Assembly: GCA_951406725.2 (NCBI GenBank)
Contig: OX597818.1
Coordinates: 4,402,001-4,466,000 of the forward strand
DNA from: Octopus vulgaris
Lineage: Eukaryota
DNA length: 64,000 nt
Direction of reading: 5' to 3'
Below, piece by piece: positions 1-8,981 of the stretch (its first letter is position 1; each line of letters begins with the position of its first letter). Made by a program: the position numbers and the translations under genes. The notes under the pieces were generated by a model. The model had not been told where the DNA came from. It ran no database searches and saw only the letters and a list, made by a program, of their open reading frames with translations.

Positions 1-500
1 CTAACTAACCCTAACTCTAATCCTAAATCTAAAATAGATTGAAATGCAATAGATCGATACTAGGGTTATAATTATGGGTGACAATTTCATACGACACCGC
101 TATAAAAAACTTAGCTGTGTCGTATGAAATTGTCACCCATAATTATAACCCTAGTATCGATCTATTGCATTTCAATCTATTTTAGAGTTAGGGTGGGTTA
201 GGGGTGGGGGAAGGGTATCTTTTTTTCTTCACAAATGTAAATAAACCCAATCTGTTTCTTAAAGGAGGGACATATTCATTATGCACAGAATTTTATTTAC
301 GTCAATGGAGGTAATTGATTGGTTAAAATTGCTGAAATGCAAGAAATTTTAGACGAAATATGTTACAACCTATAGAATTTTCTCAGTAAAGCCAAGAGAA
401 AATGATGTTTTATAAACACATTCTACCAGTATACGAAGTTTAAAATTTTTTAGTTACCTAGAAATTATGTTACAAACTGCCGTTCAAAAGGAAAAGATCC
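1..500. mobile_element. Non-autonomous TIR DNA element, left end outside the window, with a central palindrome (29-185) and telomere-like flanks
   Basis: About 74-bp inverted arms at 29-102 and 111-185. The right terminus ...AAAAGGAAAAGATCC (500) and subterminal ACACATTCTACCAGTATACGAAG resemble the element at 38315-39202. Confidence 0.6.
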
Positions 501-1137: not shown

Positions 1138-4100
1138 CTCTTGCTGGATTATTATATTTATATGCTGGATGCATTAGCTTATGTTTGTTTTTGCCCAGTA
1201 TCTTTTCATGTATATGAATAACAATATTGTTGTTTGCACAAATTTAAGGATGCTGTAGTCTAAGAGGTCTTCAGTTTTAATTCTTAACGTCATAAACCAC
1301 TCCAATCTGCGGTAGACACTCATTCATGAACCACCTGAAAACGAGCCTTGTCATTAGGTACACAAACTGGTTGCACAGGATATGACCCATAACATTAAAG
1401 TTGCACCTACGCACAGAAAGCTTTGTAAAAGCTTGATTTCTGCTTTACCCTGGCCATACTTGTTTTGGTTGTGCTTTGAGATCATTTTTCAATATTTTTT
1501 ACAAATTTATTTTGGGCAAGTTTGTTGTGAAAATGGTTGATGCTGCGTCTGATAGCAATTCTTCATTTAGCAATTTTGTTAGTCATGATTGAGGAGAATG
1601 TACAAGTGATGTATCTGTGTCGTCAGTGTATACAAGTGATCTTTTGGATTTCAGTGAGGCAGAAATTTCAGACTTGTCAAGTTCAGATGATTTGGATTAT
1701 GATGATTTGGAGTAGACTGGCATTATCAGAGGCACCATAATGGGTACGTTTAATGAAGCTAGTGGGTCTACAAGACCTCTGTCAGTGACAGCAGAACCAA
1801 TTGATTACTTTATTCAATTGTTTCCAATTACAATGTCTGAGGGATCAGTTGAGCTGACAAGCTTGAATGCTAGTTAGAAGAACAATGAAAACTTTACAAT
1901 CAGTGTGGCTGAAATGAAAGCGAATGTGGGAATTTTATTTCTTGTGGGGATTGTGCGACTACCTAGTTATAGGCAGTAGTGGGGTAAAGATGAAGTCTTC
2001 CACCAGCAGTCTATTGCCAAGGTGATGACTGTAAATAGGTATTGTAGCAAGTCTTAATAAACTGTTATCGGCAGTGATATGACATCATGGTCATGTTGGC
2101 CAAATAGGTATAATTATTAATTTCCCATTAGTTAAAATTACTGTTCATATTTGAATTCTAACTTTCATCAAAGAGAAATCTTTCATGAAATACAGTTCTT
2201 AGAATTCAGATATCAGCAGTTATAAAAACCCTGATTTTTGGGAAATAAATCAGTGTTCGTTGGTTGTCACTTGATTCCATGACACTCACTTTCCTGAGAT
2301 TTGTTATTATGATGCTAAGTCTTTTGTCTAACTCAACAAGGCTATTTTGAATTGTTGTTTAAAACTCTTTGTAGCTTAGTTATGAAAGAATTAGATAATA
2401 CATGTAAACATTAACCATACAATTTTTATGTCATAACTCTCTATGACAGTCTCTTTTTTTTACTTATAAAAATGTACTGCAAATATCAAGTGTACGTAAA
2501 TAAATTAATTTAGTAAATGATTTCTTTATCTTCCTTTCTTTAACCTGTTGATGAAATTTATTTCTGTAACTATTGAAACTGTATAGCAGTGAAAAAGAGT
2601 GAGCTTGTTTATATTCAATATACATGCATGTTCAGCATCCTGGTGTATATAATTCACCACAGTGTTTATGTAGTCTGAGCTAGAATTTATGTAAGGTGAT
2701 AAAATACTTATAATTAAGTTATAAGTGATGGATTTACCACAGATTCCTGCTAAAGAAATATTTATATTCATTATATTTTCAAGTTGAACACATTATAAAC
2801 AGATTAAATGATCTAATTGTTATTGGTAATTTTCCACTGTTATAAATTGCCACTCATCATTCTTCTCAATACACACACTGTTATAAATTTGGTGACCCTT
2901 GTGAAAAATATTAAAAAAGATGAAAATAGATGACAGTTTCATTATACAAAATTTTATAAACAGAAATATTTGATATTAAAGGTTGAAGGAAGAAAGAATG
3001 CTGAAGAAATAAAACAATAATAGTCGTAAAAAGTTTTAGCTGCACTTTCTAGCAAGCTAAATTTATACTTCATAGCTGTTGAAAGCATTATTTCACTAAG
3101 GGAAAAATTTTCTTTTTGTAAATTTTAATACATTTGAATGGAAGAAAATATTAAAGAGTTTGAAATGTCTTATTTCAATAGAGGGTATATGCAAACTTCT
3201 GTGATAGTTTTGCCTCCTCCTTGGACAGGAGACACCATTATTTGGTTTGCTCAATTAGAAGCAAGTTTTGCAGCAAACAGAATAACAGAGGCATAAAAAT
3301 ATAACATTATGTTAAGCAACTTACCACCACCTGTGAGCAATGAAATTAGAGACTTATTAATAGATCCTACTGACCCATTTTCGTATTCTTCTGTGAAAGA
3401 AGAGATGCTAAAGAGAACTTCCAACTCCAAGCAAAAAGAATTCGCCAAGTTGTTCAATAACGAACAAGGTGACAGAAAACCTACTCAACTTTTTTGTAGA
3501 ATGAAAGAACTTCTCGGGAATCAACAGATAGAAGAGTCTTATCTTAAAGAAGTTTTCTTTGGTAAGTTGCCTCATAGAACTCAAACTCTACTTTCAGCGG
3601 TGAAAGAGCAAAACTCTCTCAAGCAGCAGATTTAGCAGATGGTATATTGGAATTATCATCTAGAAAGTCTGTTAATGCTTTACCATCCATTTCTTCAGAA
3701 TTACAGAAGATGAAAGAAACTTACGAAAAACAATTAAAATTATTAACAGACAAAATTGAAAGTTTTCAACTTAGAAGAGATAAGCGTTCTCATAACAGAA
3801 ATAAGGCAAGATGGCGTGGATGATCAAAAAGTCCCAGAAGAAATGCTATATGCTGGTACCATTCAAAATTTAGTGTCAAATCTTATTGTTGTATTAAACC
3901 ATGCTCATTTGATTTTCTGAACAAAGAAAAAGCTGGGAAACTTCTCAACCACAGATTAGACACAATGAAATCCGTGGACAACTTCATAAAAAGTCACATA
4001 TTCTTCATATTTGACTCTAACTCCAAACAAAGATTCTTAGTTGATACAGGAGTGGCTTGTTCAATTTGGCATGCTAAAATTTATAACAGAGAAGCCTAAA

Positions 4101-6269
4101 CCTGCTTATTTGACCCTACAAGCAGTGAAGAATCAGTCTGACATCCAAACATTTGGAGAAATTAGTTTAACTCTAGATTTATATTTAAGAAGAGAATATA
4201 AGTGGATTTCTTTGTAGCTTAGCTATGAAAGATTTCTCTTTGACGAAAGTTAGAATTCAAATATGGGTAGTAATTTTAACCAATGGGAAACTAATAATTA
4301 TACCTATGTGGCCAACATGACCATGACGTCAAATCACCGCCGATAAAGGTTTATTAAGACTTGCTACAGTATGAAGAAATTACGAAATACTTTCATGCCA
4401 ATGATTTTACCCAAAACTCACCAAGGGGAAACCCTTGACAAACTCCACAAGGTGCACCCCATCATCAACAATGCCAAGAAGCAGTTTTCAAGGTATTACA
4501 AGCCACATAGAAACATGGCAGTGGATGAAGCAATGGTGAATTTCAAGGGAAGATGCTTGTTTCTTCAGTATATTCCATCAAAGCTGTACAAACGGGGAAT
4601 AGAGGCCTGGGCAATGTGACTGCGAGTTGTTTTACCTTGTGGACTTTGGCATGTACACAGGAAAAGAAATTATGTCTGAAGACAACCTGCTTCTTGGTAC
4701 TAGAGTAGTGAGAAAACTCGTGCCCCCATACTACAAGAAATAGCATTACAGCTATTTTGACAACTTATTCACCTCCATGGATTTGATGGAAGGTCTTTTG
4801 AAGAAAAATAATCTACTCCTATGGCACAATCAGAAGCAACTGATGTGGCATACCTGTGACCATATATACCAGAAACCCATTGCAATCCAAGAATACAGCA
4901 CAAACTACAATGCTGTTGACAAAGACAATCAGCTGTGGTCCTACTATGGCATTGCTGTCAGTGCATGAAAATGGTGGAAGTACATGTTCTGGTTTTTCTG
5001 TAACATCACCATGATCAACACATACATTTTGCACAAGGAAGCACCAGGTGGGTCCCACCCTAAACTGCTGTCTCACCTGGCTTTTCATGTCAAGGTCACT
5101 AAGAGTCTCATCAACAACTTTTCATCCAGGAAAAGGGAGTCCCATACTGATGTTGAAGAACCCATCATATCATGAGCCAACAAAAATCCAGACCAAGAGA
5201 GGACTATGGAATTGTGTCTTGTGTTCAAAGGGCACAGTTCATACACCTGCTGGTAACAAAATCCAGACCTCATGGGAATGCAAATGTTGTGGAGTAGCAC
5301 TTTGCAAAGGCAGTGGATGTTTTGCCACATTCCACAATTACCAACTATAGTTTTGTTTCCTTATGGATGCATTTCAAAGGAACGAGGCTCACCTGTGCTC
5401 CCTTGTAACGATGTCACAGACAGTAACAAGGACAACAAGCCAAAACTCACTCAGTACATGTTTGTGTAGCAGAACTTTTGTGTGTTGTACAGTAAACATT
5501 CATTATTCATAAAGTGACTGTGACTTTGAAAGTGGCTCAAGTATGATTCTCAAGCTATGGATTACTTACCTGTTTGCACCTTTTATTGGAATACTAATTT
5601 TGCATTCAAGCATCATATAGGTCAGTAAATATTTTTGTTGTTGCTGTTGTTTGTTCATCAGTGCTGTTTATTTTACTAGCAATTATTTTACTAGTTTATT
5701 AAATTTTCATACTAATTACAGGTAAAATAAACAAATCCATCAACATATGGCAATGACAATAAAAATAATACTCTCAACATGGATAACAATCATATCCTTG
5801 AATAATTCAAAAATATCATTGAAATCTATCCATTAGAAGAAAAGTTATTATATTCTAAACATACCCACCTGTTTTTAGTCTCTTTTTGCCAAATCCTTCT
5901 ATGAAGAAGGAGTTAAAACATAGAGAACTGTACATGAGAGTAAGAGTTAAAATAACAAAGTTACTCACTAATCCCAGTATTATTGCAGAGCAATTCATTT
6001 TGAAAAAAAGTCTCTCTAATGAAACTAAAAACAGGGAATCTTTATTCAAAAATCGTTTCCTTTTTATATTGATTTCTGTTCTTGTGGCAACAACAGACAG
6101 AAATAATTTTCCAATTAAAATTGCTACCAGGTAAAAATATTATCTTCATCTATATCCATAGATTACTACAGATTTATTGGAAATCTTATTGGTTATTGTG
6201 AAATATATATAGTATATTATATGTTGCTGGTTAGAATTTGAGCAGTTGAAGGTCAGTTACTAGAAAGAG
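1138..6269 (+). mobile_element. Decayed piggyBac (PGBD4-like) transposon, interrupted by the 2043-4368 insertion
   Basis: Transposase motifs EMKANVGILFLVGIVRLPSY (~1910-1970), VDEAMVNFKGR (~4520), YFDNLFTS (~4752), YNAVDKDNQL (~4905) and the C-terminal Cys-rich domain CVLC...CKCCGVALC...CFATFH (5048-5350). Candidate TTAA at 1134-1137 and 6270-6273 with weak TIRs, so the ends are tentative. Confidence 0.8.
2043..4368 (+). mobile_element. CsRN1-type Gypsy derivative (LTR-like 5' region, PBS, gag, protease) bounded by 144-bp inverted repeats
   Basis: TG...CA ends and GTAT TSD (2039-2042, 4369-4372). IR 2043-2186 versus 4225-4368. TATA 2221, AATAAA 2244, PBS TGGTGACCC 2890-2898. Gag WFAQLEASF and CWYH-x9-C-x3-C (~3850-3905); protease FLVDTG (~4035). 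Confidence 0.88.
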
Positions 6270-7118: not shown

Positions 7119-8981
7119 CCTTGCAGCCACCAATGAAGCAAATAGTGGAGTATCTTCAAAGAAAGATATGATATATATGAAACAGTTCAACAAAGTGTAA
7201 AACACAGTTTCTTTTTGATGGTGTAGTATAAGAGTTTAGTATGGCCCTCATCATTTCTCACAGAGTTGATGGAAAATTCAATCAGACAAGAGATTGGACT
7301 TCAATTTGTTCACAGTCTTGATAACTAAGTGTAGCACATCATTCAACCTACCGTTCATATTTTTTGTCACTAAATGCTGCCAGTATGCCAAGCAATGAAC
7401 AATTAGTATCTGGTAGGAAATTTCACACTTTAAGAGAAATGAAAACCTCTGTATCTTCCTATCATTGAAGGGGCTCCATCAGAAGCACAGGCTAGAATAT
7501 TACTGAGTGGGATATTATGTTCAAAAAGTAAAGACTTGAGAGTGTGAAAAATAGTTGCACCTCTTAAAATCAAGTGGCAATTTCTCTGTGAACAGCCTTT
7601 CCTCACAAGGTTGAAGTACTGAACATATACCATCATCAAATATGTATTGACAACAACAGTTGACTCATCCACTTGTATGGGAAATCCAGAACGCTGGAAA
7701 ATACTAACGAGCTGATGTTTGACATCGTTGACCATTTCATCGATGCTTCAAGAAATTGTGTTATTACTAAATGGGATCTTCATAATGTTATCGGGTTTTA
7801 GGTACATAACGGTTGACAAAATTTCTTTGATAAGTGGGTGAAGTAATGTTTCTCCAGTTGTATGAAACTTCCTAGACTTAGCAACAAGCAATGCAATATT
7901 GTATGATGCAATGAACCCGTCATTCTCCTGTTTATTAGTTTACTGGAGTAGCATGTTGAATGTTTGTATTTACTTTTTGAAAGTGGAGTTCATTTGCAAG
8001 ATGTATGATAATGGCTTGTCCTTCTTGTCAGAATGCTTTGCATCAAAGTGATACTTCAGGCGTGAAGGTTTCATTGCTTTGTTGGTCAATGTCTGATGGC
8101 AAAGATGGCACATTGGTAACTGACAGTTTTGAGGAGAGGGAATAAATCCAAATGATAAATAATCACTACTGTACTGTTGAAAAATTTTCTTGACTGGCGG
8201 CATCAATAAAGTGAAAATGTGAAAACAAATTTTTACAGATGGTGTCAGAAAGGCAGTATGGTATTCCCAAAGAGAAGAAGTCAATAGGGCAGAGTCAGGT
8301 GACACGTCTTTACTAGAGCAAATATGGATCTAGATTGTTTGGCTGCCAGCATTTCAAAAATTAAAGTTTATAGAAAATTTTGAAATTTGGCACATTAATG
8401 TACCTTTCCAAGCTAAATTACTGGAGTTGTTCAACTTTCGCCAGAAAAATGTTTTAAAAAAGTTATAGAGGTTTAAAGTTTGATCATTTTCACCCAGTCA
8501 AGAAACACGATTTCAAAGCTGTCATTTTGTGCGTGACTGTACATTTTGTCAACATCCTGAAAATAGCATTTGTGTTTTGATACGAAACCACAGAATTAAG
8601 CACAACATATAACCCCTCATAACTTTTTTATTTTTTGGAGTTTTCAGGAAATTTTTGCGAATTTGAATTCTACACATGGGACTTCATATAATTATGCCAA
8701 AAAAAGTTTGTAGTGGAGTGATTTAAGGCGTAGGCCTATTTGACTGCTATTTTTAGCACATATGACAACCATCTCAATGACTGCGACAAAAATATTTGTT
8801 CGATAAACAAGTTTGCATTTTTAATACAAAGGGATGTCTCATGTGAGTGCATCCTTATTCTAGGCACACCTAGATATCAGTAAATGCACACTTAATTTCT
8901 AAAAATTCATTGTCACTCAACAAATGTTCATATCGCCTGCCGAAATCTCTAATCGCCCATCATCCACTTTGGGAAGCTGTG
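7119..8981 (-). mobile_element. Decayed hAT Buster/Charlie (ZBED5/SCAND3-like) transposon
   Basis: BED finger YLSFGF...CHLC...MKPSRLKYHFDAKH (ORF 7970-8305); IQVDEST and ASDGAPSMIG (ORF 7430-7735). Terminus rc CACAGCTTCCCAAAGTGG at ~8981. An unrelated repeat appears inserted at ~8340-8760. Confidence 0.8.

What the first reader, a model, noticed from the sequence alone, without database searches (positions are those of the whole stretch)
2039..4372. Gypsy retroelement fragment packaged between inverted ends with a 4-bp TSD
Seen: a 2326-bp insert splits a piggyBac transposase. Removing it plus one GTAT restores ...VMTVNRY|EEITKYFHAND. It starts TGTAGCAAG and ends CTTGCTACA; the first 144 bp recur inverted at the far end (about 12 mismatches by eye). 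Inside are an LTR-like region (TATA, AATAAA), a TGGTGACCC PBS, a CHCC gag and a protease, but no RT, integrase or direct 3' LTR. The right junction is a 24-nt direct copy of 2366-2389 (4209-4232) that switches through ATGAAAGA microhomology to the inverted LTR start. Established: CsRN1-clade elements have a CHCC gag, a tRNA-Trp PBS and 4-bp TSDs; Ginger DNA transposons use Gypsy-like integrases, TGT..ACA TIRs and 4-bp TSDs. Inference: an aberrant template-switched cDNA with two U3 ends was integrated by integrase. If multicopy, it would be an LTR-derived TIR element, a possible model for how Ginger-like architecture arises.
Basis: partly seen in the sequence, partly recalled or inferred. Interest (0 to 1): 0.8.

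Follow-up and report, generated by a model that had tools for sequence, protein, structure and literature searches.

The report
Retrotransposon copy with two front ends
This insert is a single, broken copy of a Gypsy-type jumping gene that carries the same "front" tip of its terminal repeat at both ends, likely through a copying error during reverse transcription; the same genome holds several independent scars of this kind, so such errors can turn a retrotransposon into something shaped like a DNA transposon, although none of the three tested copies has multiplied.

Summary
Observation confirmed: insert 2043-4368 (2326 bp), GTAT duplicated, 144-bp inverted arms with 12 mismatches. The arm is the U3 start of the LTR of a CsRn1-like Gypsy family with ordinary LTR-gag-pol-LTR copies, not a foreign TIR. 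The window's junction is single-copy, so there is no replicating TIR family. But the structure recurs: 10 of 115 independent loci surveyed carry two inward-facing U3 arms, each with its own junction, spread over all three LTR sub-lineages; 4 have a 4-bp TSD (3 exact). Four switch at LTR nt 143-146 and four in the stem of a U3 hairpin; two retain exactly the 10-nt polypurine tract, which points to plus-strand strong-stop DNA. Best reading: recurrent template-switch by-products, integrated through two U3 ends, dead on arrival. Correction: only 14 of the "24-nt copy" are LTR-derived. No U3-U3 copy with integrase was found, so the Ginger link remains a hypothesis, though for a step Bao et al. 2010 call unclear. 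The scan noted the same kind of element in three other genomes.

The parts
1716..2042 (+). 5' part of a decayed piggyBac-type transposase (host of the insertion)
   Evidence: weak DDE_Tnp_1_7, E 0.19
2039..2042 (+). left target-site duplication GTAT
2043..2885 (+). complete 5' LTR, TGTAGC...GTTATA (843 bp)
   Evidence: matches solo and paired LTRs over its length; family U5 end (G/C)TTATA or GCTATA before the TSD
2043..2186 (+). left arm: U3 nt 1-144
   Evidence: lies upstream of the TATA-like box at 2221-2226 (U3 assignment is inferred from this)
2137..2223 (.). U3 hairpin (stem LTR 95-119 / 157-181) with the palindrome TTTCATGAAA at 2181-2190; switch hotspot
   Evidence: I6; fold -15.8 kcal/mol, z -3.6, 0 of 200 shuffles as good; junction map
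2366..2389 (+). LTR nt 324-347, the source of the short direct jump
   Evidence: (D10)
2890..2898 (+). primer-binding site, shortened to 9 nt, complementary to tRNA-Trp(CCA)
   Evidence: tRNA-Trp genes of this genome end ...CGGGGTCA
3138..3904 (+). broken gag; CX2HX9CX3C motif at 3851-3904
   Evidence: (DUF7041, E 1.2e-9)
3950..4218 (+). broken protease, cut off at 4218
   Evidence: relatives match up to 4218
4209..4232 (+). two-step junction: 10-nt microhomology (4209-4218), 14 nt from LTR 334-347 (4219-4232), 8-nt microhomology ATGAAAGA (4225-4232)
4225..4368 (-). right arm: inverted U3 nt 1-144
4369..4372 (+). right target-site duplication GTAT
4373..5350 (+). 3' part of the decayed piggyBac-type transposase
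   Evidence: DDE_Tnp_1_7 E 1e-12; zf-Tnp_2 E 0.054

Best explanation
The insert is a single-copy piece of a CsRn1-like Gypsy retrotransposon with the U3 start of its LTR at both ends and a 4-bp TSD, likely made as an aberrant cDNA by template switches during reverse transcription and likely inserted by the element's integrase using two U3 ends. Shown: structure, parent family, TSD, unique junction, independent recurrence, microhomologies. Inferred steps: (1) a jump at TTTGTAGC from the protease gene to LTR nt 334 removed RT, RNase H, integrase and the PPT (possibly in an earlier generation); (2) 14 nt later the strand paired through ATGAAAGA with a PPT-primed plus-strand strong-stop DNA, whose 5' end is exactly LTR nt 1, which gave the inverted 144 nt (the direction cannot be told: a growing plus strand copying a displaced strong-stop DNA, or a plus strand stalled at nt ~144 in the U3 hairpin priming on a plus-sense template, give the same junction); (3) integrase supplied in trans joined both TGTAGC...GCTACA ends in concert. 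Lacking a PPT, a 3' R region and pol, the copy is predicted to be a dead end. The family makes such products repeatedly, at a rough 4-8% of surveyed loci.
For: Parent copies with direct LTRs, PPT, RT, RNase H and integrase. Ordinary solo LTRs have 4-bp TSDs (12 exact among 87 arms with an intact start). U3-U3 with TSD: window GTAT, L061 GTAC, L157 CTAT, L104 CCAT/TCAT; the junctions differ (protease/LTR, RT, gag, RT-RNase H). The two arms fall in the same of three sequence clusters in 9 of 9 inverted pairs (0.34 each by chance), and the elements sit in different sub-lineages: independent origins. The window arms' differences are private or CpG-type, 11 and 5 changes against 4-16 in ten relatives: decay from identical arms. 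Inner arm ends at LTR 143-146 in 4 events (window, L157, L064, L129) and in the hairpin stem in 4 (L061, L084, L085, L086), most with 6-9 nt microhomology. L064 holds inverted U3 143-1 plus exactly 10 nt of PPT inside gag and then returns to gag; L084 keeps the same 10 nt at one end: marks of PPT-primed plus strands, and L064's piece is no integration end. Two copies of a sister family also join U3 nt 139-140 to internal sequence, with TSDs (L219, L223). Ty3 recycles its PPT and accumulates displaced dead-end plus strong-stop DNA (PMC5371799, passages).
Against: No cDNA or biochemical evidence; everything rests on old, decayed genomic copies. Microhomology and short templated inserts also mark host end-joining (own knowledge). 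The arms are not always each other's nearest relative (partner rank 3 and 7 of 124 for the window, 45 and 57 for L061), the window's arms are lopsided (branches 0.073 and 0.016), and the tree's bootstrap had not settled. L129 has both ends intact but no TSD, L084 has none, and several junctions (L129b, L104c, L114, L085b) show only 0-2 nt of microhomology. The window's internal junction was not seen in the listed read contigs.
Confidence: 0.7

Rival explanations
1. Two separate cDNAs each gave a U3 end to one concerted integration; the two free inner ends were then joined by host microhomology-mediated end-joining, which also templated the 14-nt insert.
For: Explains the TSD, two precise U3 ends, microhomology and a templated insert. 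The family's U5 end is TATA rather than TACA and could be the weaker integrase substrate (inference). Arms are not always nearest neighbours.
Against: Does not explain L064's internal U3+PPT piece, the PPT remnants of fixed length, the clustering of arm ends at nt 143-146 (resection should scatter them), or the sister family's direct U3(1-139)-to-integrase joins. Same-cluster arms in 9 of 9 pairs fit one particle, though copies active at one time would give that too.
Confidence: 0.2
2. Two ordinary copies inserted head to head (or one nested in the other) and a later deletion left opposite LTR starts, the route that Bao et al. 2010 suggest for Ginger TIRs.
For: Post-insertion deletions and nested repeats are common in these loci.
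Against: Two insertions would not share one TSD; 3 exact and 1 one-mismatch TSD among 4 such elements. Arms always come from one cluster.
Confidence: 0.05
3. The 144-bp repeat is the TIR of an unrelated MITE or Ginger family that captured a Gypsy fragment, or of a replicating LTR-derived TIR family.
For: TGT...ACA ends, 4-bp TSD and 144-bp arms fall within Ginger's ranges (PMC2836005). L084 is a 260-bp MITE-shaped foldback.
Against: The repeat runs on into the rest of the LTR in most copies and follows the PPT in 3' LTRs. Three junctions tested genome-wide are each single-copy; the only shared junction among the fetched loci (L140, L192, L193) has shared flanks too. No transposase in the insert.
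Confidence: 0.03
4. Assembly artefact (a foldback read or a collapsed repeat).
For: The internal junction is not among the listed read contigs.
Against: The arms differ at 12 of 144 sites; both host junctions lie in contigs of three studies; the host frame is continuous across the TSD.
Confidence: 0.02

Closest known systems
CsRn1-clade Ty3/Gypsy retrotransposons (PwRn1, AgCR; PMC2582038, passages read)
   Same: tRNA-Trp PBS, CX2HX9CX3C gag, 4-bp TSD, LTR ends TGT...ATA (the sister family TGT...AAA), GPF after the integrase core in a full-length relative
   Different: The window copy ends U3-U3 instead of U3-U5 and lacks RT, RNase H, integrase, PPT and 3' LTR
Complex LTR insertions made by template switching (Sabot and Schulman 2007, PMC1950507, passages read)
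   Same: An aberrant reverse transcript integrated as one unit with one TSD
   Different: Those are direct three-LTR tandems; 'invert' and 'opposite' do not occur in that text. Here the second end is an inverted U3.
Ty3 PPT recycling and dead-end plus strong-stop DNA (PMC5371799, passages read)
   Same: Supplies the displaced plus-sense template that starts at LTR nt 1, as the mechanism needs
   Different: Described as by-products in particles; the passages read do not report integrated U3-U3 products
Defective HIV-1 proviruses with inversions or asymmetric LTRs (PMC9278108, passages read)
   Same: Integrated errors of reverse transcription; two categories with inversions at 1.3% (n = 1) each
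   Different: The passages read give no U3-U3 termini and no hairpin hotspot
Ginger1 / Ginger2 DNA transposons (Bao et al. 2010, PMC2836005, parts 1-3 of 5 read)
   Same: TGT...ACA termini, 40-270-bp TIRs, 4-bp TSD
   Different: Gingers encode an integrase-like transposase and are multicopy; this copy has none, is single, and its arms are LTR pieces

Membership tests
CsRn1-clade Gypsy (parent family) | CX2HX9CX3C gag motif | tested here: met
   3851-3904; feature from PMC2582038
CsRn1-clade Gypsy (parent family) | PBS complementary to tRNA-Trp | tested here: met
   9 nt in the window, longer in L067; tRNA-Trp(CCA) genes of G000 in L232
CsRn1-clade Gypsy (parent family) | 4-bp TSD; LTR ends TGT...ATA or AAA | tested here: met
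   PMC2582038
CsRn1-clade Gypsy (parent family) | PR-RT-RNase H-IN order and GPY/F motif | tested here: met
   in sister-family copy L069, about 74% alike to the window's internal part; absent from the window copy itself
CsRn1-clade Gypsy (parent family) | RT phylogeny inside the CsRn1 clade | not tested
   no named reference RTs were fetched
Intact LTR retrotransposon insertion | two direct LTRs with a PPT before the 3' LTR | tested here: not met
   the right end is an inverted U3; no PPT
Ginger DNA transposon | TGT...ACA TIRs of 40-270 bp and a 4-bp TSD | tested here: met
   against PMC2836005
Ginger DNA transposon | Gypsy-like integrase as transposase between the TIRs | tested here: not met
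   none in the window or in the other nine loci with inverted U3 arms; none U3-U3 among 33 further pol-bearing loci
Ginger or MITE family | several copies of one structure with different TSDs | tested here: not met
Ginger DNA transposon | excision (cut and paste) | not testable with these tools
   no empty-site joint listed in three runs; a search for the empty host site found nothing

The most novel reading that the evidence does not exclude
Gypsy reverse transcription routinely, at a few percent of insertions and steered by a U3 hairpin, makes TSD-bounded elements with LTR-derived terminal inverted repeats in one step. A rare such product that keeps the integrase gene behind the left LTR promoter would be a ready-made proto-Ginger, which supplies the missing step in the 'reverse evolution' of DNA transposons from Gypsy.
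Probability: 0.2. Interest if true: 0.8.

Novelty: new variant of a known kind. Interest (0 to 1): 0.48.

Why it matters
Bao et al. [quoted passage not shown] This family shows a one-step route: inverted ends of Ginger-like length with a true TSD, formed again and again. The set of junctions is also a natural record of how plus-strand strong-stop DNA misbehaves (a hairpin hotspot, PPT remnants), and a warning that TIR+TSD detectors will file such by-products as MITEs or Gingers. It is not an active or multiplying element, and template-switch errors as such are known.

Tried and rejected
Multicopy junction: rejected for the window, L157 and L061 (only 40 of 195-212 candidates are scored, but a copy spanning the junction would rank at the top). 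A wide-gap pattern for inverted pairs was not accepted; pairs were found from site lists instead. Two matches were dropped as non-family by their sequence; 2 of 104 unfetched sites (near-identical repeats of fetched ones) stayed unfetched. Empty piggyBac site: no match at 3 mismatches, uninformative for an old element. My first idea that L061 switches at CATGAAA was wrong: it switches at AAATATG near LTR nt 110. My idea that L084 and L085 are right ends of full-length elements was wrong. Six short 'U3U3?' hits (L105, L111, L129-far, L153, L187, L199) lack family sequence and were rejected; its 10 one-mismatch solo TSDs include false ones and are not counted. INV flags of L123, L136 and L160 rest on weak 68-70% hits and are not counted. 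No missing outer arm was found in 7 of 7 extended loci. No U3-U3 element with integrase among the loci (20 of 41 integrase matches were newly fetched). Literature: searches gave no listing that describes U3-U3 Gypsy insertions (listings only; the library lacks most subscription papers and no supplements were read), so this is no proof of absence. Run X22 laid no reads.
Full report
OBSERVATION. The insert is 2043-4368 (2326 bp), flanked by GTAT, with arms 2043-2186 and 4225-4368 that differ at 12 of 144 sites. The flanks, translated separately, are in one frame of a decayed piggyBac-type transposase (Pfam E 1e-12 right, E 0.19 left). Inside are an 843-bp LTR, a 9-nt PBS complementary to the genome's own tRNA-Trp(CCA), a gag with CX2HX9CX3C and a protease cut at 4218. 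Both host junctions lie in contigs of three public runs from three studies under three organism codes (one may be the assembly's own sample); the right junction has 91 nt inside in X4 and 30 nt in X2 and X18. The internal junction is not among the listed pieces, and the raw-read run gave no test.

PARENT. The window is G000:C5:4402001-4466000 of a 2.8-Gb genome. The arm sequence is the start of an LTR with at least 239 sites (control 0). Most copies run on into the rest of the LTR. Copies with a PPT and a direct 3' LTR exist (L063, L066, L067; sister family L069, L072), with RT, RNase H and integrase. Solo LTRs read TGTAGC...(G/C)TTATA or GCTATA with 4-bp TSDs (12 exact among 87 arms with an intact start). 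These are the CsRn1 traits listed in PMC2582038 and PMC3630058 (passages), TGT...ATA ends included.

THE JUNCTION. Relatives' protease DNA matches the window up to 4218. The 24-nt 'direct copy' is therefore a 10-nt microhomology followed by 14 nt of LTR 334-347, whose last 8 nt (ATGAAAGA) are also the first 8 of the inverted arm. That is two switches: a forward jump that drops RT, RNase H, integrase and the PPT, then an inversion. Only the window spans this junction (1 of 42 listed matches, 40 of 212 candidates scored).

RECURRENCE. I listed 135 U3 sites (two non-family matches dropped), fetched all but 2 of the 104 not yet held and mapped 127 loci. After dropping 10 duplicated-segment twins and 2 fragments, 125 arms remain, which are 115 independent loci. 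Ten carry two inward-facing U3 arms: the window (TSD GTAT), L061 (GTAC; ends in RT), L157 (CTAT; ends in gag), L104 (CCAT/TCAT; 28-nt arm), L129 (both ends, no TSD), L084 (foldback, PPT at the left end, no TSD), L114 and L185 (one tip lost), L085 and L064 (inverted arm not terminal). Without the window this is 9 of 114, 3 with a TSD; two-armed copies are up to twice as easy to catch, so the rate is roughly 4-8%. Eight more loci hold inversions with ends lost (L086, L087, L124, L140, L154, L182, L194, L195). The L157 and L061 junctions are single-copy (1 of 42, 1 of 40); the one junction shared among fetched loci (L140, L192, L193) has shared flanks. In 9 of 9 inverted pairs both arms fall in the same of three clusters (0.34 each by chance), and the elements lie in all three; the tree is short and its support rough, and partners are not always nearest neighbours. 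The window arms carry 11 and 5 changes against 4-16 in relatives, mostly private or CpG-type.

MECHANISM. U3 nt 95-181 folds into a hairpin (z -3.6, 0 of 200 shuffles) with TTTCATGAAA at nt 139-148. Four inner arm ends lie at nt 143-146 (window, L157, L064, L129) and four in the stem (L061, L084, L085, L086); others lie at about 28, 290 and 543. Most have 6-9 nt of microhomology, four have 0-2. L064 is the most telling: gag switches at GTGAAAGA to inverted U3 143-1, copies exactly 10 nt of PPT and returns to gag; L084 keeps the same 10 nt. A template or primer that ends at the PPT boundary or at nt 1 is what PPT-primed plus-strand strong-stop DNA is; Ty3 recycles its PPT and accumulates such displaced strands (PMC5371799, passages). 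In the sister family two TSD-bounded copies join U3 nt 139-140 to internal sequence (L219, L223). I infer switches between a growing strand and plus strong-stop DNA, then concerted integration through two U3 ends (TSD present) or one-ended insertion with host repair (L084, L129). Relaxed substrate use by Ty1 integrase, and composite insertions ascribed to strand switching, are noted in PMC2939329 (introduction). The direction of the switch cannot be read from sequence. The main rival, two cDNAs integrated together and joined by host end-joining (0.2), fits the window alone but not L064 or the clustering.

COMPARISON AND NOVELTY. It works like the template-switch complexes of Sabot and Schulman 2007 (passages; those are direct) and defective HIV proviruses with inversions (passages). 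It looks like a Ginger (TGT...ACA, 40-270-bp TIRs, 4-bp TSD; PMC2836005 parts 1-3) but fails membership: no integrase, one copy. No U3-U3 copy with integrase was seen. Bao et al. call the LTR-to-TIR step unclear and propose two chance insertions (echoed in PMC6839031, passages); the shared TSDs here show a one-step route. Seven searches gave no listing on U3-U3 Gypsy insertions, in a library that lacks most subscription papers; no supplements were read. The scan's own notes report inverted-LTR insertions in three other genomes (AI notes, not checked here, read after my reading was fixed).

VERDICT. Real, a dead-end by-product, single as a copy and recurrent as a class: a new variant of a known kind, interest 0.48. 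The Ginger route is possible (0.2) but not shown.

Noticed in passing
window 1-201: A near-perfect palindrome (81-nt arms, 98% complementary, 9-nt loop) with TTAGGG-like ends; likely a young foldback or MITE-type repeat.
   Followed up: no
window 7430-8329 (- strand): Broken frames that resemble a hAT/Buster-type transposase (recalled resemblance; Pfam gave no relevant hit).
   Followed up: no
L219:4750-7035: Sister-family copy made of U3 nt 1-139, the integrase region only, the PPT and a 3' LTR, with TSD ATAC: an integrase-only insertion, but with ordinary U3-U5 ends.
   Followed up: partly
L223:2170-5480, L221, L222: Sister-family copies with large internal inversions; L223 has TSD GTAT and a foldback inside the integrase gene.
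   Followed up: partly
window 2790-2898 and relatives L027, L094, L067: The U5 end holds a variable number of short units that resemble the LTR end plus the PBS start, so LTR length varies between about 700 and 940 bp.
   Followed up: partly
window ~2530-2580 and ~2935-2990: An imperfect long-range inverted repeat between the LTR and the leader; L140 and L194 switched strands there independently.
   Followed up: partly
L232 (G000:C6:58378500-58388499): A tandem array of tRNA-Trp(CCA) genes, 8 in 10 kb; pattern matches run on to about 58.46 Mb.
   Followed up: partly
L202:611-864: An LTR segment (nt 213-298) amplified into six or more tandem copies.
   Followed up: no
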